From: Octopus sinensis
Taxonomy: Eukaryota
Direction of reading: 5' to 3'
DNA length: 58,795 nt
Assembly: GCF_006345805.1 (NCBI RefSeq)
Contig: NW_021835513.1
Location: 1-58,795 of the forward strand
Each line of letters begins with the position of its first letter. Within the stretch, counting starts at the first letter, position 1. Shown here one piece after another: positions 11,476-56,904 of the stretch. The position numbers and the translations under genes were made by a program. Below the pieces are notes generated by a model. It was not told where the DNA came from, searched no databases, and was given only the letters and a program-made list of their open reading frames with translations.

Positions 11476-12782
11476 AATACAAAACCCATGTGCTTTATAT
11501 ATATATGCATATATTTATATTTATACACACATACACATATAGATATATACCTCTACATATAAATACACACGCATAGGTATATACGCACCTGAGTGTGAAT
11601 ATAAATATGTATAAAACTACAGATGTGAAGACGTAAGGATGTATATGTTTTGTGGAAATAGAAATACGCAAATATACATAGATCCAGACAGAAATACAAT
11701 GAAGCATATACCCAGTTTTATATACATAAACGCACACACACGTTTATATACATAGAGATACCTGCATAGAAAAAGAAAGATATGTAAGCAAATTTCGTCG
11801 AAACCAGACATGCTGTGAATGAAATATATATATGTTTTGTTACCACTTTTACCCCTCCGAAAAAAATCACATATTTTATTTAATTTGCTTTGAGGGAAAG
11901 ATTGTTTCAAGGAAGTCGTGTCTCGCCTTTACCTTCGAAACACGGAGCAGACGAAGCAGAAGCGGCTGAAGACGGAGAATATTCCTTGTGTTGTATGTCA
12001 TGTACTCTCTTTATACGTTGATTAAAAAAATTGTCCGTTTCCATGGTTTTGTGTTTATGTTTTCGTTTCTCATTGTGTTCGACGTATTTTTGGTGTCCTG
12101 TACCCATATACGCATGTATATATACATGTAGATATAGGTACGTACATATATGTATGTATATACGCATATGTTTTATTTATTATTTTGTTATTATATATAT
12201 ATATATATGTATATATATGCGTGTGTGTGTGTGTGTGAGCATCATATACAATTACTACTTTCATGTCTTCGCAAATTTACGCCTGTAAAATCCCAGCAAA
12301 GTATGAAGAATCAACATTAGAAATCTTTTTTGGAATCCTGCAATTAAAGGACGAATCCAAATTCAATCTTCAATATATATATATATATATATATGAACAT
12401 ACAAATGTATATAGACCAGTTTCTTCAAAGTTATGTTGTCGCCTCACAATAAATTTATATACAGCATGAAAATTGGCTTAAAATCCCATGTGTCCTTATT
12501 TTTATGAAGACAGTCAGACATGTACAGGGAGTTGACTAGTTTCAGTATAACATACCCCATTTTATTTGAGCTGCAAAACAGTGCAAGATGCGACCGGGGA
12601 TGTAAACGCTTGTGTGGTTGATAACATTTAAAAGTATCACGAATGGAGACATTGTTAGCAGCGTTCTGATAGATTTCTTACCAATAATATCGTTTGGGGT
12701 TCCATAATAGATTCGCTAGATTCGTCATATATTCGTCCATCTTTAGGATAATCACGTTCATGATATATATATATATATATAT

Positions 12783-13113
12783 ATAAATGAAAGAATGGAG
12801 ACTAACGACGATTTAACAAAATTCCTTTATTCTCGACATGTGTTTCGAAGACTGCATATTCCTAATTCCGAAGGAATAAGGAGTGCATTATGCCGTCTTC
12901 GAAACATATGTCGAGAATAAAGGAATTTTGTTAAATCGTCGTTCGACTCCATTCTTTCATTTATTTATAGTAAAAAAAAACACACAAATTTCACACGAAA
13001 GCACGTGATCTCTGCCCTTGGCATGTAGCTTCAACCGTGTTTTCTGACGTGAATTTGCTACCCGGGTATCGGTTGACCGATTTATCCATACTAGGATAAT
13101 TCATTCAACTACT
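12783..13113 (+). mobile_element. Penelope-like pLTR fragment with ~180 bp fold-back (12783-12964) centred on a hammerhead stem II
   Basis: Arms 12783-12858 and 12889-12964 are near-perfect inverted repeats. The right arm holds GAAAC-ATAT-GTC then AATAAA. A second family member lies at about 41797-42033. (TA)n on both sides. Confidence 0.7.
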
Positions 13114-14870: not shown

Positions 14871-15829
14871 GTCTGTCTCTGTCTGTCTGTCTCTCAATCT
14901 ATCTACCTATGCATCTCTCTCTCTCTCTCTATTTATCTATCTGTATATTTATCTATCAATCTCCTTGTAACTATCTATCTGCTTGTCTGTCTGTCTATCT
15001 ATCGATGTATGTATGTATGTATGTATGTATGTATGTATGTATTTATCTATCTGTCTATCTATCTATCTATTAATCAATTTACCTAGATCCAATAACTGTT
15101 TTAATGGTTGTTGCGAAGTCGCTGAACATTTGGCATCAAATATTCTTTTCTGTACCAATTACGAGGAAATCGCGTATTGTCACCTGTTGTGTGAGTAAGA
15201 TATATCGAACCTAACGAACGATTCCACCGAGAACATCGACGCCGGGAACCGCAAGCTGGAAAGCAGAAAATTATCCAATCGAAGCAGGATGTAAAGGATT
15301 CTTCGGAAGTTTTTTTAGAAGGTTTTACTCAAAAATAAAGCAGAGAACATCATTAGCACTAACATCAGGATAGCAGTTAAGCCATTGGATAGGTTTAAGT
15401 TAAGTCGATGCCCAATATTTGGAGGAATAATCTGGTAAGCATAGAAGCCAGTTAATCTAGCCAGTGCTGCCTTATATGGAGGCTAGCCGTTGTGTATTGA
15501 TGCCGTTGAGATAAAGGTGCTGAATCGGCGCGATTTCTCACCTGATGTTTTCCCTAAACCTGTTAGTGTTCGCAACGTGGGACAAATATCCATGACATGT
15601 AAATAATGTATATAGACGTGCATGTTTGTGTCTGTTTGTGTCTGTGTTTGTCATTTCCACACTTGTATCTGTTATTGCTTTGTCCCGTTGCATTAGCAGT
15701 GTGGCAAAAAGAGAACGATAGAAAAAATAATAGTGTTTTTGTTTTTCCTGCTAAAAACCTTCAAGGTTGAGCCCAACACGGCCGCAGTCCAATGACTGAG
15801 ACAAGTAAAAGATATATATTATTGATCTA

Positions 15830-16248
15830 TACTCTTTTACTTGTTTCAGTCATTTTACTGCGGCCATGCTGGAGCACCGCCTTTAGTCGAGCCAATCGAA
15901 CCCAGAACTTATTCTTTGTAAGCCTAGTACTTGTTCTATCGGTCTCTTTTGCCGAACCGCTAAGATACTGGGACGTAAACACACCAGCATCAGTTGTGAA
16001 GCGATGTAGGGGGGGGGGGGCAAACACAGACGCACAAACATATATACGCACTCATACACATAGATATATATATATATATACATACATACTACCGGCTTAT
16101 TTTAGTTTCCGTCTACCAAATCCACTCAAGGATTTGGTCGGCCCGAAGCTATAGTAGAAGACACTTGCCCAAAGTCTCACGCAGTGGGACTGAACCCGGA
16201 ACCATGTGGTTGGTAAGCAAGCTACTTACCACACAGCCACTCCTTGCG
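15830..16248 (-). mobile_element. tRNA-derived SINE family B, near full length
   Basis: Minus head GGAGTGGCTGTGTGGTAAG...GGTTCAGTCCC, CORE-like TTGGGCAAGTG, internal microsatellite, tail ending AAGTAAAAGAGTA. It is tail-to-tail with a plus-strand partial copy at about 15620-15812. Confidence 0.88.
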
Positions 16249-18420: not shown

Positions 18421-19030
18421 GGCGAGCTGGCAGACTCGTTAGCACGCCGGGCGAAATGAGTAGCCTTATTTCATCTGCCGCTACATCCTGAGTTCAAATT
18501 ACGCCGAGGTCAACTTTGCCTTTCATCCTTTCGGAGTCGATAAATTAAGTACCAGTTATGCACTGGTGTCTATGTAATCGACTTAATCTCTTTGTCTGTC
18601 CTTGTCTGTCCCCTCTATGTTTAGCCCCTTGTGGGTAGTAAAGAAATAGATATAATATTTCACATTAAATAAGGCTATAGCTGGCAGAATCGTTAGTATG
18701 CAGGGCGAAATGCGTAGCGGCTGACGAAATACCGCAAAGCATTTCGCCCAGCATACTAAAGTTTCCACCAGCTCGCCGCCTTAAGAATATTAATAACTGT
18801 GGGGAGCTGGCTGAAATTGTTAGGACGCCGGGCAAAATGCTTTGCGGTATTTCGTCTGCCGTTACGTTCTGAGTTCAAATTCCGCCGATGTCGACTTTGC
18901 CTTTCATCCTTTCATGGTCGATAAATTAAGTACCAGTTACGCACTAGGGTCGATGTAATCGACTTAATACCTATGTCTGTCCTTGTTTGTCCCCTCTGTG
19001 TTTGTCCCCTTGTGGGCAATAAAGAAATAA
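18421..19030. mobile_element. Cluster of tRNA-derived SINE family C: + copy 18421-18650, fold-back heads 18673-18780, + copy 18800-19030
   Basis: Head GGCGAGCTGGCAGA..CGTTAG (A box), GAGTTCAAATT (B box), central GCCTTTCATCCTTTCG..GTCGATAAATTAAGTACCAG, tail ending AAAGAAATA. Confidence 0.88.
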
Positions 19031-19361
19031 GAAACACACAAACACAAACCGGCTCATAGGACACACACACACACACATATGAAGGCACACAAATGTTCAT
19101 ACACAAACAGACACACACCATACACACACACACAATCACACAAACATGCACAGTCAAATGCACGCTCGCACAGAGAAAAATACCAGTCGACACATACATG
19201 TGCTCACACTCACACACACATACGTACAAACACATTCGCACACACACGCACACATAATTAAACATACATACCAAAACATATTCACACACACACATGAATC
19301 AACGCACACAGCACACACACGAGGGGGTGGGGGATGAAAAGGCCCGGGCTTTGGGCAAAAG

Positions 19362-20859: not shown

Positions 20860-21807
20860 TTATCTATCTATCTATGTGTCTATATACACAAACACACAGA
20901 CACACACACACACAGACACATATATATACATATATATATATGTAAGTGTATATATATAGATATCCATGTATGTGGGTGTATATATGTATAGATATAGATG
21001 TGTGTATGTTTTAATGTTTTTACGTCCTCGTAACAGTGGTTCGGCAAAACTTGGTGATAGAATAAGTCCCAGGTATGAACAAAAGACAAAAAATTATAAA
21101 CAAAAAAAAGAAAAAACAGACAAACAAAACAAACAAGTAAGCCCTGGGGTCGATTCCTTCGACTAAAAATTCTTCAAGCCGGTCCTCAGCAATGGCCGTA
21201 ATCTAATTCCTGAAACAATTAAAAGATAAAAGTTGAAAACTATGAATGAGAAACTAAAAGAAAAAAACTTCGTAAGAAATAAGCACACACAAAAAAGACG
21301 AAAAGCAACGTAGTATTTGAATTCAATGCATGTTTTTCTCGAAAATTCTTTCATTTCTTTATTCGAAATGCTAATCCGCTTCGTTTTTGTGTCGAACTTA
21401 TTGTCTCCCTTGTAGCAGCTGCAGTTTCAATGGAAACTGACTGTATGCGGATAATGTGGTAATTAACGTAATAACGTAATAAGGTCGAATTGAACAGCGA
21501 ACTGGCAGAAAGTGATAGAATATGACATTTAGTACCAATTAATGTTGGGTTGTAATTCTCTCGAAGGTGCCGAATTTCGAGGATGTTGATGGTGTGGAAT
21601 AAAACCCGGCGTTATTCATTCCGTTTGTCTAAATTCTGCGTTAAACTCGTCTCTTGTCATCTGCCTTTTATTCTTTTGAGATTAAGTAAAGTAACAGTCC
21701 AAAATGGAGGTAGAGTTTCGAACTAAATGGTTTGTAATATTTACTCAGGGACTAAGGCAATATTCCTAGCACGAGAGAGGAAATGCTTATCGGTTTACCG
21801 TCTATAA

Positions 21808-22360
21808 GGTGGCGAGCTGGCAGAAACGTTAGCAGGCCGGGAGAAATGCTTAGCCGTATTTCGTCTGCCGCTACGTTCCGAGTTCAAATTCCGCCGAAGT
21901 CGGCTTTGCCTTTCATCCTTTCGGGGTCGATTAAATAAGAACAGTTACGCACTGGGGTCGATATGATCGACTTAATCCCTTTGTCTGTCCTTGTTCGTCC
22001 TGTCTGTGTTTAGCCCCTTGTGGGTAATAAAGAAATAGGTTTCTCGTCTGCCGTTACGTTCTGAGTTCAAATTCCGCCGAGGTTGACTTTGCCTTTCTTC
22101 CTTTCGGGGTCGATAAATTAAGTACCAGTTACGCACTGGGGTCGATGTAATCGACTTAATCCGTTTGTCTGTCCTTGTTTGTCGTCTCTGTGTTTAGCCC
22201 CTTGTGGGTAGTAAAAAATAGGTATTTTGCCCATTGCTATGTTCTAAGTTCAAATTCCGCCGTGGTCGATAGATTTACTACCAGTGAAACCCTGAGGACG
22301 GTGTAATCGATTTGTCCCCTCCTCACAAATTTAAGGCTTTTTGCTTATGGTAGATAGATA
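21808..22360 (+). mobile_element. SINE-C tandem trimer: full head, then two headless units, the last with an alternative tail
   Basis: Junctions AGAAATAG|GTTTCTCG at about 22038 and AAAAATAG|GTATTTTG at about 22221. Confidence 0.85.
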
Positions 22361-24269: not shown

Positions 24270-25034
24270 TATTCTTCTTTTCTACTCTCGGCACAAAGAC
24301 CGAAATTTTTGGGAAGAAGGGTCCAGTCAATTAGATCGACCTCAGTACGCAACAGGTACTTAATTTATTGACCGCGAAAGGATGAAAGGGAAAGGCGACC
24401 TCGGCAGAATTTGAACTCAGGACGTAAAGACAGACGAAATACCTCTAAGCATTTCGTCCAACGTACTAATGTATCTGCCAGCTCACCGCCTTTAAGATTA
24501 TTTCCTACTATAGGGTCAAGGCCTGAAATTTGGGGAGTGGTCTAGTCATTTAGATCGACTCCAGTACGCAACTGGTATTCAGTTTATTGACCCCGAAAGG
24601 ATGAAAGGCAAAGTCGACCTCGGCGGAATTTGAACTCAGAACGTAGCGGCAGACGAAATACGAAGGACAGACAAACGGATTAAGTCGATTATATCGACAC
24701 CTGTGCGTAACTGGTACTTATTTTATCGACCCCGAAAGGATAAAAGACAAAGTCATTTTTGGCGGAATTTGAACTCAGAACGTAACGGCAGGCATATATA
24801 TCTATTTCTTTACTACCCACAAGGGGCTAAACACAGAGGGGAACAAGCAAGGACAGACAAACGGATAAGTCGATTATATCGACCCCAGTGCGTAACTTGT
24901 TCTTATTTAATCGACCCCGAAAGGATGAAAGGCAAAGTCGACCTCGGCAGAATTTGAACTCAGAACGTAACTGCAAATGAGATACCGTTAAGCATTCTGC
25001 CCGGCGTGCTAACGTTTCTGCCAGCTCGCAGCCT
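24270..25034 (-). mobile_element. SINE-C monomer (24270-24490) plus tandem multimer (24497-25034)
   Basis: Repeated GACCCCGAAAGGATGAAAGGCAAAGTCGACCTCGGC.GAATTTGAACTCAG blocks; heads at about 24480 and 25025. Confidence 0.85.
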
Positions 25035-25424
25035 TACAGATTTTATGTATTAAGACAAAAGCGGTATTCAAATTTTGGAATTTTTGTTTATGCAGCGTTT
25101 TTGTATCGATTTGTAGAATTATTAAAGATGTCTTGACTGAAAATTCATGCCTTTAATATATACGTGAGGTAGATGTAAAAATCTTGAGTTCAATGAGAAA
25201 TAAAATGTTTTATTATTATTTTGATTCCCTGTGTGTATGTGTATATATTTGTATGTATATATATGTGTGTGTATTTATGTTTACATGTCTTCAATGTATG
25301 TGTGTGAGGAATTTTGGAGGCTTGGTTAAAGGAAGAATAAAGGGAAGACAAAAGAAGGGAAGAAAGACAGGAACACAGAAAGGGCAGGAGAGAATGAAGG
25401 CCAAAAAGAAGGAAAAAGAACGAC

Positions 25425-32993: not shown

Positions 32994-33101
32994 GTATATA
33001 TATAGATATACAACGCTCTCAGCACACGATCTCAGATCAAATTACTTGCTATGCGAGTAAATCTCCCTATATTATCTATATATATATATATATATATATA
33101 G

Positions 33102-33458
33102 ATATGCTTTCGGTGCGAATGTTTTCCTTATACGGACCCATTTTTACAGTTCTGTAAATAATAATAATGATATTTTATATAAGCTAAGAGCTTATGGCGA
33201 CCACCTTCCAATGACTAAGAAAAAATAGTCTAATAAAGGGACATATAAGACCTCGATAGAAAAAAGACGAGTTTCTTCGGATAGGAAAGTCTTCTTTTTT
33301 CTGTCGAGTCCTTATATGTCCCGTTATTAGACTATTTTTCTTTGTCATTACACAGGGATCACCATAAACCTTTAGCTTATATAAACATATCATTATTATT
33401 ATTGCAGACCTGCAAAAACGGGTCCGTATAAGAAACATTATTCGCACTGAAAGCATGT
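33102..33458. mobile_element. ~355 bp imperfect palindrome (fold-back) flanked by TA/TACA repeats
   Basis: ATGCTTTCGGTGCGAAT..TTATACGGACCC..AATAATAATAATGATAT..TAGTCTAATAA.GGGACATATAAG is mirrored by CTTATATGTCCC.TTATTAGACTA..ATATCATTATTATTATT..GGGTCCGTATAA..ATTCGCACTGAAAGCAT. Confidence 0.85.
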
Positions 33459-33535
33459 ATACATACATACATACATACATACATACATACACACATACAT
33501 ACATACATATATACATACATACATACATACATATG

Positions 33536-34840: not shown

Positions 34841-35949
34841 ATGATAACGATGATGATGATGATAATTATATTCATAATGGCAGTGATGATCTTGATGATG
34901 TCACTGATGTTAATAAGAATAATGGCTGCTATCTGAATAGTGATCTGAGGACGGAGATGAAGAAGAAAAAATAAACAAAGGAAATGAGAAGGAGGAGGAG
35001 GAGAAGGAGATAACAAAATTCTAAGACAGAGAATGTACTACACTTCCAAATATAGTATTAAAAAAACCCAAAAAAAAACCAAACAAACATACAAAAAACA
35101 AGAAAAGAAACTGTGCTGTTGTTGTATTATGTCACTGATGATAGTTCCCTGCAATTTCTTGCTGTCAGAAATTTCACTTCAACAAATTTTCGAAGAATGT
35201 AACACTGAAATTTCGAAAATAAATTAGCCAATATAGTTAGGAATAATTAAATTATAATTGCTTTTGAATTACAGGTTGTAATTTTGAAAGAAATGTTTGA
35301 GATCTATTTGTGAGCGCACTTGCCATTAATTATCGAGTCAGACACTTTAACATTTGTTAAAAGTTTTGCTTAAATAGAATAATATTGTAGAAGGGAGCAC
35401 ACTGCAAAGCCTTTGGCGATTTATGCTAGGTAGTTGTCAGAATCGATATAATTGCTAATATATTAATTCTAAATGACAAAACACCAGTTAAAACTGAGTT
35501 CCTATAACAAATTATTTCTTTGTATTTATTTGAGTTACTTAAAAAAAAAAATGTATATTATTATAATTACACTTGGTGTAAATTACAATTTAAAATTGAA
35601 TTTCCGAAGTTTTCTTAAAAACCAAAGTTCCGAAGATTCCCGGCGTTATTTGTGTGAGCACGTGTGACGTCTTCTCGATCCGTTTCAGTTTTACGTTTTA
35701 ATAGGCCCTAATCGCTATAATCAGGTAATTAGCAAACATAAGGGACTAATTAACTCTTGTTCAGCAGGCATCTATGCCTAATGAATTGATGATGCTACAT
35801 AATTAATGAAGCGCTTAGTTCGCCCGTGGTTAGGTTCACTTATGTACCATAAGTACATTTCACCGATCGTAAAGTAACGGATTGCAGCTTCAGATGTTTC
35901 CGTAATCGGTGAACATATAGATCGCTCCTTAAGATGTTTGCTCAATATA

Positions 35950-36915
35950 TATTTCTTTACTGCCTACAAGGGGCTAAACATAGAGAGGACAAACAAGGAC
36001 AGACAAAGGGATAAAGTAGACTACATCGATCCCAGTGCGAAATTAGTACTTTATTTATCGACCCCGAAAGGATGAAAGGCAAAGTCGACCTCGGTGGAAT
36101 TTGAACTCAGAACGTAAAGACGGACGAAATACCTATTTTTTTACAACCCACAAGGGGCTAAACATAGAGAGGACAAACAAGGACAGACAAAGGGATTAAG
36201 TCGACTACATCGATCCCAGTGCGAAATTAGTACTTTATTTATCGACCCCGAAAGGATGAAAGGCAAAGTGGACCTCGGCGGAATATGAACTCAGAACGTA
36301 AAGACGGACGAAATACCTATTTTTTTACAACCCACAAGGGGCTAAACATAGAGAGGACAAAACAAGGACAGACAAAGGGATTAAGTCGACTACATCGATC
36401 CCAGTGCGAAATTAGTACTTTATTTATCGACCCCGAAAGGATGAAAGGCAAAGTGGACCTCGGCGGAATATGAACTCAGAACGTAAAGACGGACGAAATA
36501 CCTATTTTTTTACAACCCACAAGGGGCTAAACATAGAGAGGACAAACAAGGACAGACAAAGGGATTAAGTCGACTACATCGATCCCAGTGCGAAATTAGT
36601 ACTTTATTTATCGACCCCGAAAGGATGAAAGGCAAAGTGGACCTCGGCGGAATATGAACTCAGAACGTAAAGACGGACGAAATACCTATTTTTTTACTAT
36701 TCACAAGGGGCTAAACACAAAAAAAAAAACAAGGACAGACAAACGGATTAAGTCGATTATATCGACCCTATTGCGTAACTGGTACTTAATTTATCGACCC
36801 CGAAAGGATGAAATGCAAAGTCGACCTGGGCGGAATTTGAACTCGGAACGTAACGGTAGACGAAATACCGCTAAGCATTTCTCCCAATGTGCTAAAGATT
36901 CTGCCAGCTTCCCGC
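35950..36915 (-). mobile_element. SINE-C tandem array, 5 units, period 184-185 bp
   Basis: Junction GACGAAATAC|CTATTT at about 36132, 36316, 36501 and 36685. The inner units are almost identical. One complete head at about 36870-36915. Confidence 0.92.
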
Positions 36916-45485: not shown

Positions 45486-45912
45486 TAAAAGGAAAGACAG
45501 GACTGCCTAAATAGCGGTCTTCTAAATTATGTTTTTTTCGACGCACCGAAAAGATGAAAAGCAATGCTGCACTTGACTGGGTTCGAACTTAAAGTGAATC
45601 CAGCCGTGGCCAACATGCAGTTGCTCCAACTATACATGCAGCTGCAAAATGTGACGTAGTAGTGGCAGAAGTAGAAGTACGAATAGTAGTAGGAGCTGCT
45701 TCAGAGGCGCCAGTAGTGTTTTTGCTTGTCACGAAGGAACATGCTCAACTGGTTGAGTTTAAACAACTGACAGGCAAATCTGGGGTATTGAGCAAAATAT
45801 TTGGTGTAGTCCATCTTTTACACCAAAGCAAAACATCATACCATTTCCAATCAGTTAAGATCAAAAGCTATGAGAGCCAGTGCCTGGTATTGCATCAGGG
45901 CAGTTATTAATT

Positions 45913-46772
45913 ATTTATTTATTGCCCACAGGGTGCTGAACACAGAAGGGACAAACAAGGAAAGACAAAGGGATGAAGTGGATTACCTCGACCCCAGTGC
46001 GTAACTGGTACTTAATCTATCGACCCTGAAAGGATGACAGGCAAAGTCGACCTCGGCGGAATTTGAACTCGGAACGTAACGGCAGACGAAATAGCGCTAA
46101 GCATCTCGCCCGGCGTGATAACGATTCTGCCAGCTCCCTGCAGTTATTAATATTCTTAAGGAGGCGAGCTGGCGGAAACATTAGCACGCCAGGCGAAATG
46201 CTTTGCGGTATTTCGTCTGCCGTTACGTTCTGAGTTCAAATTCCGCCGAGGTCGACTTTGCCTTTCAACCTTTCGGGCTCGATAAATTAAGTACCAGTTA
46301 CGCACTGGGGTCGATGTAATCGACTTAATCCGTTTGTCTGTCCTTGTTTGTCCTGTCTCTGTTTAACCCCTTGTGGATAGTAAAGAAATAGGTATTTCGA
46401 CGGCCGCTACGTTCTGAGTTCAAATTCCGCCGAGGGTCGACTTTACCTATCATTATTTCGGGTTCGATAAATTAAGTACCAGTTACGCACTGGGGTCGAT
46501 GTAATTGACTGGTCCCTCCCCCAAATTTCAGGCCTTGCGCCTACAGTTGACAGCATTATTATTATATTCTAAAAGTGGCGAGCTCTGGCAGAATGGTGCC
46601 TGTAGAAATACTTAGCTGAATGTCGCTCATTGCTACGTTCTGAAGGTCGCCTTTGCCTTGCATTCTAACGGGGTCGATAAATTAAGTACCAGAGAAACAC
46701 TGGAGTCGATGGAATCGACTTATCCCCTCCCTTCCCTCAAATTTCAGACTTTATGCCTGTAGTACAAAAGAC
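45913..46772. mobile_element. Head-to-head SINE-C cluster: - copy 45913-46140, + dimer 46160-46563, decayed + copy 46573-46772
   Basis: Family C sequence on both strands. GCAGTTATTAAT at 45900-45911 and 46140-46151 brackets the minus copy. Confidence 0.88.
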
Positions 46773-48640: not shown

Positions 48641-49687
48641 ACCTGATTCATACCATCATGGCCTCATATAAGAGTAAGCCACTGCTTGCTTCCCTCTTCC
48701 GAATTGGTGTTTTATACGATGTTTGCTGAATTCCTTCCCTCTCAAATAACAAGTAACGCGATTTTTATTCTTGTCTACCAACTGTTATTTCCTATTTGCC
48801 TACCCTTAAAAAGTCTGAAAAATGGCTAATATTCCTTCAAAATTTGCTTATGTTACGTTTATTCAAACCCCACAGAAACTCTCTCAACATATGGGTATGG
48901 TACCCTTCCACTACTCCTACTCATGATCAGAGATTCAGATATTAAACAGTAAGGGACATGCTCAACTCGTTAAGGTCAAACAACTGACAAACATGTCAGA
49001 CGTACTGAACAAAATATTTGTTATCACAATGTTTCTGCTTCGGCAACCCAGCGCTGAATCTGTCTGAAAAGTAATGGAAAATAGATCAGTTTCAAAACAT
49101 TGATGTGCAGATCACCGAAGCAACGTGTGAAGGGAATAAAAGTCATTTCCTTTGATTTGTAGATTCAAGCAAATACGAAATAATACCTACTGACCTAAGA
49201 CAAAAATAAAATAAAATAAAATTAAAATTTGCTGCATCATCTAAGATTATTTTTCTCCATTTTACTTCATTAGCATCTTGGTCTTCCCAAATCTCAATAG
49301 AAATGACACATTTCTTGAAATTCATATTAAGACGGTTTTAGAATTTAGAGATTTCCCTGTTTCCTTTTTCGTCATCGAACAAGTATTCTGGAATTCTGGT
49401 ATTGTTCGAACCACATCAAAACACTCCGAACGATGATGGCTTCCGGGCTAATCATTGGAGATTTCGCTACAGCTTCAGTATCCGCGGTATGTATGATCCA
49501 CTTCTCGTTCAGTAAATGTTTCCAACAGATTTGTTGGAACTGTTCGAATATCTTAATCAGGCTTTTGTAGAACATTCAAGATTCACCGACAAAGGATAAA
49601 ACTGGGAGTACACTAGTTTTGTAGATGTATATATTTGTGCTTAATATCATCCGGTGTTACGGTCAAATCATATACATATATACATAG

Positions 49688-49756
<69 letters not shown>

Positions 49757-49863
49757 CATATATATAGAGATAGAGAGATAGAGAGAGAGTGAAAGAGAGA
49801 GAGAGAAAGAGAGTGAAACAACTTGTTTTAAATCTGTGAGCAAGAGATATATAGTAACAGCAC

Positions 49864-50219
49864 CGGATAATAATGTTTATATGCCAACAGAATGTGGCAG
49901 TCTTATACAGGACAATGCTACTGTTATTTTAGCCCTAGGAAAACATTTTTCCAGCTGGCTCTCGACACACCGTTTGTGACAGTATAGCAGTAACTTGTCA
50001 ATGTCTCACACTGAGGATGGATAACATTCAGAAACCTCGGTCTGTGAGTATCACCTAAGGCTAGAGTTGGGAGCTATGACTTACCATGGAAATACTATAT
50101 GGACGCAAATTGTGTGTCGATAGCCTGCTGGAAAAGATGTTTTCCTGGGGATAAAAGAACAGTAATATCGTCCTTTATAGGACTGCCACATTCTGTTGAC
50201 AAATAAACAATACGGTCCG
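49864..50219. mobile_element. ~355 bp fold-back element with ~120-135 bp inverted arms enclosing a hammerhead
   Basis: CAACAGAATGTGGCAGTC.TATA.AGGAC..TACTGTT.TTTTA.CCC.AGGAAAACAT..TTCCAGC.GGCT.TCGACACAC is mirrored at about 50095-50209. Confidence 0.85.
50005..50048 (+). ncRNA. Intact type I hammerhead ribozyme
   Basis: Stem I CTCACA/TGTGAG (6 bp); CTGAGGA 50011-50017; stem II TGGAT-AAC-ATTCA; GAAA 50031-50034; stem III ACC-TC-GGT; GTC triplet, predicted cleavage after 50042. Confidence 0.85.
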
Positions 50220-54531: not shown

Positions 54532-55390
54532 GGCGGCGAGCCGGCAGAATCGTTACCTATTTCTTTACTACCCACAAGGGGCTAAACACAGAGAGGAGAA
54601 ACAAGGACAGACAAACGGATTAAGTCGATTATATCGACCCCAGTGCGTAACTGGTACTTATTTAATCGACCATGAAAGAATGAAAGGCAAAGTCGACCTC
54701 GGCGGAATTTGAACTCAGAACGTAGCAGCAGACGAATTACGGCTACGCATTTCGCCCGGCGTGCTCAGAACGTAGCGGCAGACGAAATACCTATTTCTTT
54801 ACTATCCACAAGGGGCTAAACACAGAGAGAACAAACAAGGAAAGACAAACGGATTAAGTCGATTATATTGACCCCAGTGCGTAACTAGTACTTATTTAAT
54901 CGACCCCGAAAGGATGAAAGGCAAAGTCGACCTCGGCGAAATTTGAACTTAGAACGTAGCGGCAGACGAAATACCTATTTCTTTACTATCCACAAGGGGC
55001 TAAACACAGAGAGGACAAACAAGGAAAGACAAACGGATTAAGTCGATTATATTGACCCCAGTGCGTAACTAGTACTTATTTAATCGACCCCGAAAGGATG
55101 AAAGACAAAGTCGACCTCGGCGAAATTTGAACTTAGAACGTAGCGGCAGACGAAATACCTATTTCTTTACTATCCACAAGGGGCTAAACACAGAGGGGAC
55201 AAACAAGGATAGACAAACGGATTAAGTCGATTTTATCGACCCCAATGTGTAACTGGTACTTATTTAATCGACCCCGAAAGGATGAAAGGCAAAGTCGACC
55301 ACGGCGAAATTTGAACTCAGAACGTAACGCAGATGAAATACTGCTACGCATTTCGCCCGGTGTGCTAACGTTTCTGCCTGCTCGCTGCCT
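54532..55390 (-). mobile_element. SINE-C tandem array, 4 units, period 184 bp, capped by a short inverted head
   Basis: Junction GACGAAATAC|CTATTTC at about 54790, 54974 and 55158; full head at about 55340-55390; plus-strand head fragment at 54532-54555. Confidence 0.92.
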
Positions 55391-56904
55391 TAGTAGAATC
55401 GTTACCGCTCTTGACAAATTGCTTAGCGGCATGTTGTTCGGCTTTACGCTCTGAGTTTCTCTATCCTAGACGGATACTGTGAAAACAATTAGGGGCCCCT
55501 CATTACTCGTGGTTTTACGAAGCTTTCTGTCGCCAAACAAGAATATTTCTGAATTCAGGCGTTCAGACGGATTGACATTACACATGGCAGTAAACCGAAA
55601 GCTGTGGACCTGACAAGAACGACTTGTATAATCAGAGTCGACCTGCAATCAATAATGACTAAGGGGTTACTCTACACACCACAACCCCTGACACTTTAGA
55701 AACAGACCCTCAATAACGATGCACTAAGACTCATACCCAGGGTTGTATTGGCGCCGCGTATTTGGCATCGCTGATTCAACGATGAACTATTTAATATCAG
55801 ACGTCTTAATGCTTCCCTTGTTTTTTCCCCAACCGTTTCCCTCTACACATGTGTGAGAATTTTTCTTTTTATGTCTATGATTGTTTATGTGAACCGTTTT
55901 CAGTTATTGAATTATAATGTGTCTCTCCTCTACTTCCTCTCAAATTACCTTAATCTCGACGTGTATATTCCTACTCAATCGTCCGCGTGTGAATACGTGT
56001 GCGTGTTTGTCGCCAGTGCCAAAAAGTACTCTCGTCAAAACCAGCTAAATGTTCTGTCAAACCTGCCCAAGAGCAGCACCCAGTCGCCTAATGCCCTTCT
56101 CGTTTTCAAACGTTATTAACTCAGGCGTCTTGGTTGAATATATTCTTTAAAAGAAGAAAAAAGCTCTGTGTAATTTGATGAAGAGTTCACTGCTATTTCT
56201 CGCATCCACTGTCAACATAGACGCTTCATTATTCACATCTTCATAATTTATTTCTAAGCCATTCAGTTTTAGATTTCATAGGAAACGAGAGAGAAGTAGT
56301 TTCTGTTTGGTTGTCTGAGACATTTTAAGTGAATCTTAGTTTTAATCATTTTCTGTTTAAAATCCAATCAATTATTTCTTAGTAACAAGCAGCAAACAAG
56401 ACAACAATTTAATGAAATTGTTGAATCACTATGATTAGTGACAATACGGAAAGTATTAGTTCGTTCTCTCAATCTACAGCGACATTCATATGGAAAGTAC
56501 TGAATAACACATTTGCTCTCCATTCTTCGTTCTGTCCCATTTTTGCTGTATCGTTGCTGTTACTCTTGTCGTAATTCTCGTCGTTCTTCAGTTCTGAGGT
56601 GGCTTGGTTTAACTTTGCGTAATATTAAAAATCTTTCGAACAGGTAAAATTTAACTCTCTTCTCTTAATTTGTTTTTGTTTTCTGATGTTATAGAATACA
56701 CCAAATGGCGTCGTCTTTATTTATTAAATCACATTTCCTCATTTTCTGAGACGTTAGCTTATGATGCGATAGAGAATTATCTGTTATTTCTAGCAGACCG
56801 ATATACCGCATAGAATGTACATCGTTGCTTTCCAACTAAAGATGTTTGTGGACTGCCGATATCAAGGAATGGAAAAAATAAAAGAAAAAACAAGAATCTG
56901 GTTA

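What the first reader, a model, noticed from the sequence alone, without database searches (positions are those of the whole stretch)
49864..50219. Viroid-like rod: intact hammerhead presented in the loop of a ~355-nt inverted repeat
Seen: the best HHR in the window (all core bases, 6-bp stem I, GUC site) occupies the ~80-nt spacer between two ~120-135 bp inverted arms. The arms have accumulated mismatches while the ribozyme is intact. A + transcript would fold as a long rod with a self-cleaving tip. Inference: either a PLE pLTR with an inverted 5' extension or a MITE-like family carrying a ribozyme. Cleavage would open the loop and leave a long dsRNA for Dicer/ADAR, or supply a primer end. 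I do not recognise this as a described family.
Basis: partly seen in the sequence, partly recalled or inferred. Interest (0 to 1): 0.72.

Follow-up and report, generated by a model that had tools for sequence, protein, structure and literature searches.

The report
Decayed Penelope-type retrozyme, inverted insertion
The hairpin is real but ordinary: it is an old, worn copy of a common 354-base ribozyme-carrying repeat, and its mirror-image arm was likely added at insertion by a Penelope-type jumping-gene enzyme, so it is not a purpose-built viroid-like rod.

Summary
The inverted repeat and the hammerhead core are there, but the reading is not supported. The element is 49810-50216: two 5'-truncated pieces of one 354-nt repeat monomer, joined head to head. 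The family is dispersed and often tandem. 31 of 74 independent loci hold such an inverted pair, with unrelated loop sizes; 17 of 18 pairs with regular ends join one short and one tailed end. This is the published Penelope-like (PLE) insertion layout. The ribozyme core is no better kept than the arms (55 changes seen, 61 expected), and the arms show no compensation. This copy has a private change that breaks the helix III dimer palindrome and is predicted to trap the core. A young sister family (352 nt, 68% identical) shows the same layout in (TA)n, hammerhead covariation, and a 7-mer of 99%-identical units, which fits copying from a circular RNA. Verdict: new member of a known kind (non-LTR retrozyme / non-autonomous PLE). 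The scan noted the same end-pairing before in other genomes. Expression, cleavage and the mobilising PLE are not shown.

The parts
49810..49866 (-). 57-nt tail (monomer positions u231-287) of the inverted copy; long ('T') 3' end, abuts an (AG)n/(TA)n microsatellite; no partner on the right
   Evidence: flank
49867..49989 (-). Inverted, 5'-truncated copy of the monomer (u107-230) = left arm; 12 differences from the family majority in u107-227
49988..49989 (.). Head-to-head junction of the two truncated copies (2-nt overlap)
   Evidence: spanned by a contig
49988..50216 (+). Direct, 5'-truncated copy of the monomer (u1-227/230), ending at the short ('S') 3' end
50005..50048 (+). Type I hammerhead: stem I 50005-10/50043-48, CUGAGGA 50011-17, stem II 50018-30, GAAA 50031-34, helix III ACCUCGGU 50034-41 (family ACCUAGGU), predicted cut after C50042
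50093..50213 (+). Right arm (u107-227 of the direct copy); 11 differences from the family majority; 82.5% identical to the left arm

Best explanation
This is one decayed insertion of a 354-nt, non-coding, hammerhead-bearing tandem repeat family (a non-LTR retrozyme type), likely mobilised by a Penelope-like reverse transcriptase/endonuclease encoded elsewhere, and the rod is likely a by-product of that insertion. Shown: both arms are pieces of one monomer; family copies end at two fixed sites about 60 nt apart (u~230 and u~290); 5' ends vary; inverted pairs join one end of each kind; ends often abut microsatellites. Inferred: the enzyme nicks both strands of an AT-rich target, primes reverse transcription once on each strand at the two start sites of one RNA template, both cDNAs stop early, and their truncated ends are joined head to head. 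The hammerhead falls in the loop only when one cDNA stops before it and the other just after it. Inferred: the ribozyme was selected in the active lineage for cutting multimeric RNA to monomers as a dimer, and the template is likely a circle or a homogeneous multimer. After insertion this copy decayed neutrally and is predicted to cleave poorly.
For: Monomer of 354 nt with in-register tandem units; 35 of 125 pieces longer than a monomer. 31 of 74 loci with a head-to-head pair. 17 of 18 regular pairs are short+tailed, p = 2.7e-5 if ends were independent; sister family 20 of 21. 39 of 90 regular ends abut a microsatellite against 8.6% of random positions; sister family ends almost all in (TA)n, by eye. 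One clear 13-nt target duplication (L053). Core substitutions 55 seen vs 61.3 expected, P = 0.23; 47 vs 46.3 in 66 rows that cover both regions. Window arms 82.5% alike vs 84.6% to other copies, 0 shared changes. Between the two families 6 of 13 hammerhead pairs change on both sides. Helix III self-duplex -4.5 vs -11.4 kcal/mol in five typical copies. Units inside one insertion share variants: sister family 205 vs 54 expected for tandem turns, 137 vs 39 for inverted arms. RT+GIY-YIG PLEs with long open frames, minimal hammerheads and (TA)n ends exist in this genome. Layout and two start sites are published.
Against: No mobilising PLE was identified: none of 32 GIY-YIG loci examined (20 of 150 matches fetched plus 12 longer stretches, partly the same places) carries this repeat as its own end. 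No target duplication is visible at this copy, and its right flank is 70 nt of unique sequence, not a microsatellite. 5' ends are not enriched at the cut site (4 of 125 and 2 of 74 within 3 nt), so the genome shows no footprint of cleavage. 13 of 31 pairs have at least one irregular end. Samples are the best-scoring hits, and the sister-family query favoured tailed ends. Two of five typical copies fold as poorly as this one by one or other measure.
Confidence: 0.88

Rival explanations
1. A distinct MITE-like or viroid-like family whose unit is the whole rod, selected to present a self-cleaving tip.
For: Very stable rod; all core bases present; 10 of 18 regular pairs also have the hammerhead in the loop.
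Against: No two pairs share junctions; 43 of 74 loci lack the inverted arm; ends are asymmetric (tail); no compensation between arms; core not extra conserved; no hammerhead on the other strand.
Confidence: 0.03
2. The pieces are simply the truncated ends (pLTRs) of an autonomous, ORF-bearing PLE, not a separate non-coding retrozyme family.
For: Same end layout as autonomous PLEs; only 40 candidates are scored per search, so rare full-length elements can be missed.
Against: 45 of 125 pieces run upstream in register into the previous monomer; no shared alternative flank and no PLE ORF in the 74 loci; one sister insertion holds 7.2 monomers.
Confidence: 0.1
3. Origin as above, but this copy has since been put to use as a dsRNA substrate (ADAR, Dicer) or a regulated cleavage site in a host transcript.
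For: 99 Watson-Crick and 6 G-U pairs in 121 positions; longest unbroken helix 23 bp.
Against: Arms have drifted apart as far as unrelated copies; no gene is evident beside it.
Confidence: 0.05
4. The left arm arose after insertion by a local inverted duplication or repair event.
For: No target duplication is seen here.
Against: The left piece holds 57 nt of monomer that the right piece lacks, and the arms share none of their changes.
Confidence: 0.02

Closest known systems
EN+ Penelope-like element insertions with adjacent inverted 5'-truncated copy and one-sided tail (Craig et al. 2021, PMC8557442, passages; Arkhipova et al. 2013, PMC3846280, passages)
   Same: Head-to-head inverted truncated copy, tail on one end only, partial tandems, microsatellite targets, occasional target duplication.
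   Different: No ORF; tail about 57-60 nt here (43-46 in the sister family) against 30-40 bp described; tandem junction fixed at a 354-nt period.
Metazoan non-LTR retrozymes (Cervera and de la Pena 2020, PMC7229834, passages and section 14; bioRxiv 10.64898/2026.07.22.740005, part 1 of 5 and passages)
   Same: Non-coding tandem monomer of about 350 nt (mussel: 350-390), type I hammerhead, highly self-paired monomer, many solo copies, co-existing with PLEs.
   Different: Circular RNA and cleavage not shown here. The word 'inverted' does not occur in PMC7229834 and occurs once in the preprint, so the paired short/tailed ends of retrozyme insertions were not seen discussed in the passages read; supplements were not read.
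Poseidon of Anolis (PAc), two internal reverse-transcription start sites (Frangieh et al. 2024, PMC11167929, passages)
   Same: Two start sites that define the tail; both target strands nicked and extended; AT-rich targets; no RNA ends at the hammerhead cut site.
   Different: PAc is autonomous and its hammerhead overlaps the ORF start; the inverted product was not the subject of the passages read.
Type I and minimal hammerheads with palindromic helix III that act as dimers (Cervera and de la Pena 2014, PMC4209133, part 1 of 4)
   Same: 6-bp helix I, 3-4-bp helix II, 2-bp helix III capped by a palindrome in the family.
   Different: In this copy the palindrome is broken.
Viroids and viroid-like rods (own knowledge)
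   Same: Size, rod-like predicted fold, hammerhead.
   Different: The rod is a DNA inversion of one repeat, one ribozyme only, no second cut site to release a unit, variable from copy to copy.

Membership tests
Non-LTR retrozyme | Short non-coding monomer (about 170-400 nt) in head-to-tail tandems | tested here: met
   354 nt; 35 of 125 pieces longer than a monomer; sister family up to 7.2 units
Non-LTR retrozyme | Type I hammerhead in each unit | tested here: met
   Core, stems and covariation; Rfam model not matched
Non-LTR retrozyme | Highly self-paired monomer | tested here: met
   Natural monomer z = -4.39; circular majority folds -125.0 and -127.5 vs shuffles -82.5 and -86.3
Non-LTR retrozyme | Self-cleavage and accumulation as circular RNA | not testable with these tools
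   No RNA data could be examined
Non-LTR retrozyme | This copy is 'active' (two consecutive complete hammerheads) | tested here: not met
   One hammerhead only, palindrome broken
EN+ PLE insertion (non-autonomous) | Variable 5' truncation with adjacent inverted truncated copy | tested here: met
   31 of 74 loci; starts spread from u-379 to u280
EN+ PLE insertion (non-autonomous) | Tail at one end only (two 3' end sites) | tested here: met
   17 of 18 and 20 of 21 regular pairs
EN+ PLE insertion (non-autonomous) | AT-rich or microsatellite targets, optional target duplication | tested here: met
   39 of 90 ends vs 8.6% control; 13-nt duplication at L053, none at this copy
EN+ PLE insertion (non-autonomous) | Shared end sequence with an autonomous RT+GIY-YIG partner | tested here: inconclusive
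   None among 32 loci examined; 150 GIY-YIG matches listed of 5029 candidates
Autonomous PLE | RT + GIY-YIG ORF between the repeats | tested here: not met
   No PLE ORF in the window or in the 74 family loci
MITE | Fixed boundaries with symmetrical terminal inverted repeats and a fixed target duplication | tested here: not met
   Junctions and lengths differ in all pairs; ends asymmetric
Viroid-like RNA | Unit-length circle with ribozymes that release the unit, rod conserved by covariation | tested here: not met
   One hammerhead, none on the - strand; 0 shared changes between arms

The most novel reading that the evidence does not exclude
These two families are circular-RNA retrozymes that a PLE enzyme copies by rolling round one circle while priming on both target strands at two fixed sites. 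One insertion would then record both the circle (7.2 units 99.4% alike, sharing private variants) and the two-strand priming (short end paired with tailed end). This would tie the retrozyme and PLE mechanisms together directly, and the young sister family would seed the genome with near-perfect dsRNA hairpins.
Probability: 0.45. Interest if true: 0.5.

Novelty: new member of a known kind. Interest (0 to 1): 0.2.

Why it matters
The locus itself matters little: it is a worn repeat copy. It is a caution that hammerhead-tipped rods in animal genomes are often PLE insertion by-products. The family data have modest value. They support, by insertion signatures, the proposal that animal retrozymes are moved by PLE enzymes. 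They also give a simple prediction for the unexplained PLE inversions: each target strand uses a different start site on the same template. The young sister family is the better material for testing circular RNA, cleavage and editing.

Tried and rejected
Rfam: whole-window scan listed only microsatellite-driven matches among the 150 of 273 shown; the element alone gave two chance matches. No RNA holder listed for the stretch; this says nothing on expression. Target duplication at this copy: none. Pre-insertion site: the right flank is single-copy and the left flank an old low-copy repeat that stops before the microsatellite, so the empty site could not be rebuilt. Cleavage footprint in 5' ends: none. 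Autonomous partner: a sister-family copy sits beside a PLE ORF in L116, but in opposite orientation inside (TA)n and not at that PLE's own 3' end, so it is read as a separate insertion; a weak related hit lies 600 nt beyond the PLE in L110. One search used a structure string that was off by one column; it is disregarded and was redone. Literature: five searches; none listed a paper on this family, but repeat libraries (Repbase, Dfam) could not be searched and supplements were not read, so the family may already be catalogued.

Full report
Observation. The region holds two inverted arms (83% and 80% complementary) and folds as a rod at -171 kcal/mol, z = -15.55. The loop holds a type I hammerhead: stem I 50005-10/50043-48, CUGAGGA 50011-17, GAAA 50031-34, GUC 50040-42. 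Rfam does not recognise it. Contigs from two runs of one study cover the left arm and the inversion junction; these may be the source sample, so they show only that the assembly is right.

Family. A search of the own genome gave 1838 first-look candidates, 40 scored. Four searches brought 93 loci; 19 were dropped as the same place or a duplicate, leaving 74. All pieces map on one 354-nt monomer that also occurs head to tail; 35 of 125 pieces are longer than one monomer and 45 run upstream in register into the previous unit. Copies are about 85% alike. With u1 = window 49988, the window element is an inverted piece u287 to u107 (49810-49989) followed by a direct piece u1 to u227/230 (49988-50216).

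Layout. 3' ends cluster at two sites, u220-238 (56 ends) and u270-298 (34 ends); 35 ends are elsewhere; 5' ends are spread. 31 of 74 loci have a head-to-head inverted pair. In 18 both ends are regular, and 17 of these join a short and a tailed end (p = 2.7e-5). Loops range from 8 to 515 nt; the hammerhead is in the loop in 10, partly paired in 1, in both arms in 7. 39 of 90 regular ends abut a microsatellite against 8.6% of random positions. One locus has a clear 13-nt target duplication; this copy has none. The samples are best-scoring hits, so the fractions are not genome-wide rates.

Selection. Across 201 rows the 11 core bases show 55 substitutions against 61.3 expected from base-matched background (P = 0.23); 38 of 77 rows that cover the ribozyme keep the whole core. 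The window arms are 82.5% alike, other copies 84.6%, with no shared change. The hammerhead module differs from the majority at 4 of 45 positions, the arms at 12 and 11 of 121. C50038 is private (1 of 85). It turns the helix III palindrome ACCUAGGU into ACCUCGGU, drops the predicted self-duplex from -11.4 to -4.5 kcal/mol and lets CUGAGG pair with CCUCGG; mean unpaired probability of the core is 0.13, against 0.15-0.61 in five family copies and 0.38-0.44 in four sister copies. Such hammerheads are reported to need a dimer (PMC4209133, part 1 read), and this insertion has one. Poor cleavage is a prediction, not a result.

Sister family. While looking for a partner I found a younger family, 352 nt, 68% identical; a 22-nt motif of it has 233 exact matches. 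In 50 loci (7 duplicates dropped) there are 27 inverted pairs: 20 short+tailed, 1 tailed+tailed, 6 with an irregular end; the query favoured tailed ends. Ends lie almost always in (TA)n. On 16 sequences that I picked (9 of this family, 7 of the sister) 6 of 13 hammerhead pairs change on both sides, mostly one event each at the family split. So the ribozyme was kept in the active lineage, not in inserted copies. Units within an insertion share non-majority bases: sister tandem turns 205 vs 54 expected, arms 137 vs 39; older family 49 vs 25 and 86 vs 40 (121 of the 205 come from one locus). That locus holds 7.2 monomers, 14 differences in 2168 positions, a tailed end and a short inverted arm. 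This fits one template per insertion, circular or a homogeneous multimer; later unequal crossing-over is not excluded.

Partner. The genome has many GIY-YIG matches (150 scored of 5029 candidates), some in 775-781-residue RT+GIY-YIG frames with minimal palindromic hammerheads in the 3' region and (TA)n ends. None of the 32 loci examined carries this repeat as its own end, and no PLE ORF lies in the window or the 74 family loci. The mobilising element is therefore inferred, not found.

Mechanism. Most likely a PLE enzyme nicks both strands of an AT-rich site and primes cDNA once on each strand, at the two start sites; both copies stop early and are joined head to head. Frangieh et al. (PMC11167929, passages) show two internal start sites that define the tail, extension of both strands, and no need for hammerhead cleavage in vitro. 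The lack of 5' ends at the cut site here (4 of 125; 2 of 74) agrees with an uncleaved or circular template. Arkhipova et al. (PMC3846280, passages) propose self-priming on an antisense template as another route; my data do not exclude it, though the one-short-one-tailed rule is simpler under two priming events.

Comparison. The layout is stated in Craig et al. (PMC8557442, passages): an inverted 5'-truncated copy adjacent at the 5' end and a tail at one end. The monomer matches non-LTR retrozymes (PMC7229834, passages and section 14), which a 2026 preprint derives from PLE ends (10.64898/2026.07.22.740005, part 1 of 5 and passages). It works like a PLE insertion and meets the sequence criteria of a retrozyme; circular RNA and cleavage are untested. 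It fails MITE and viroid tests. Five paper searches listed no paper on this family; supplements and repeat libraries were not seen. Earlier notes of this scan hold no look-alike sequence but report the same end-pairing in other genomes; my counts came before that look-up.

Verdict. Real feature, ordinary origin, decayed copy. New member of a known kind; interest 0.2. The live lead is the young sister family as a test of circular templates and two-strand priming.

Noticed in passing
L126-L182, L190 (e.g. G000:C2:197248011-197250640): Young sister retrozyme family, 352-nt monomer, mostly 90-99% to its majority, in (TA)n; one insertion of 7.2 near-identical monomers plus a short inverted arm.
   Followed up: yes
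L127:1101 (+) and the mirror position on the - strand: A third hammerhead family as an inverted pair around a sister-family copy; no similarity to the two families by profile search.
   Followed up: no
L114-L121, L097, L107, L108: Several RT+GIY-YIG Penelope-like families with long open frames; 3' regions carry minimal hammerheads, often with the U3-A8 core variant and palindromic helix III. Clade not determined.
   Followed up: partly
window 35944-36909, 54554-55397, 18421-19035, 21801-22269, 24325-25040: Abundant repeat with 184-nt tandem units; looks like a tRNA-derived SINE with duplicated tail (label recalled, not tested).
   Followed up: no
window 45912-46390: Inverted pair of that same repeat, forming another long hairpin without a hammerhead motif.
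   Followed up: partly
window 33079-33481, 12778-12969, 15773-15872, 18713-18866: Other self-inverted repeats of 100-400 nt; long hairpins are common in this window.
   Followed up: no
window 49390-49660: Left flank is an old low-copy repeat (10 other matches at about 70%).
   Followed up: partly
L051:1262-1471: About seven direct repeats of a 30-nt piece around the short 3' end of the monomer, perhaps repeated priming or slippage at that start site.
   Followed up: no
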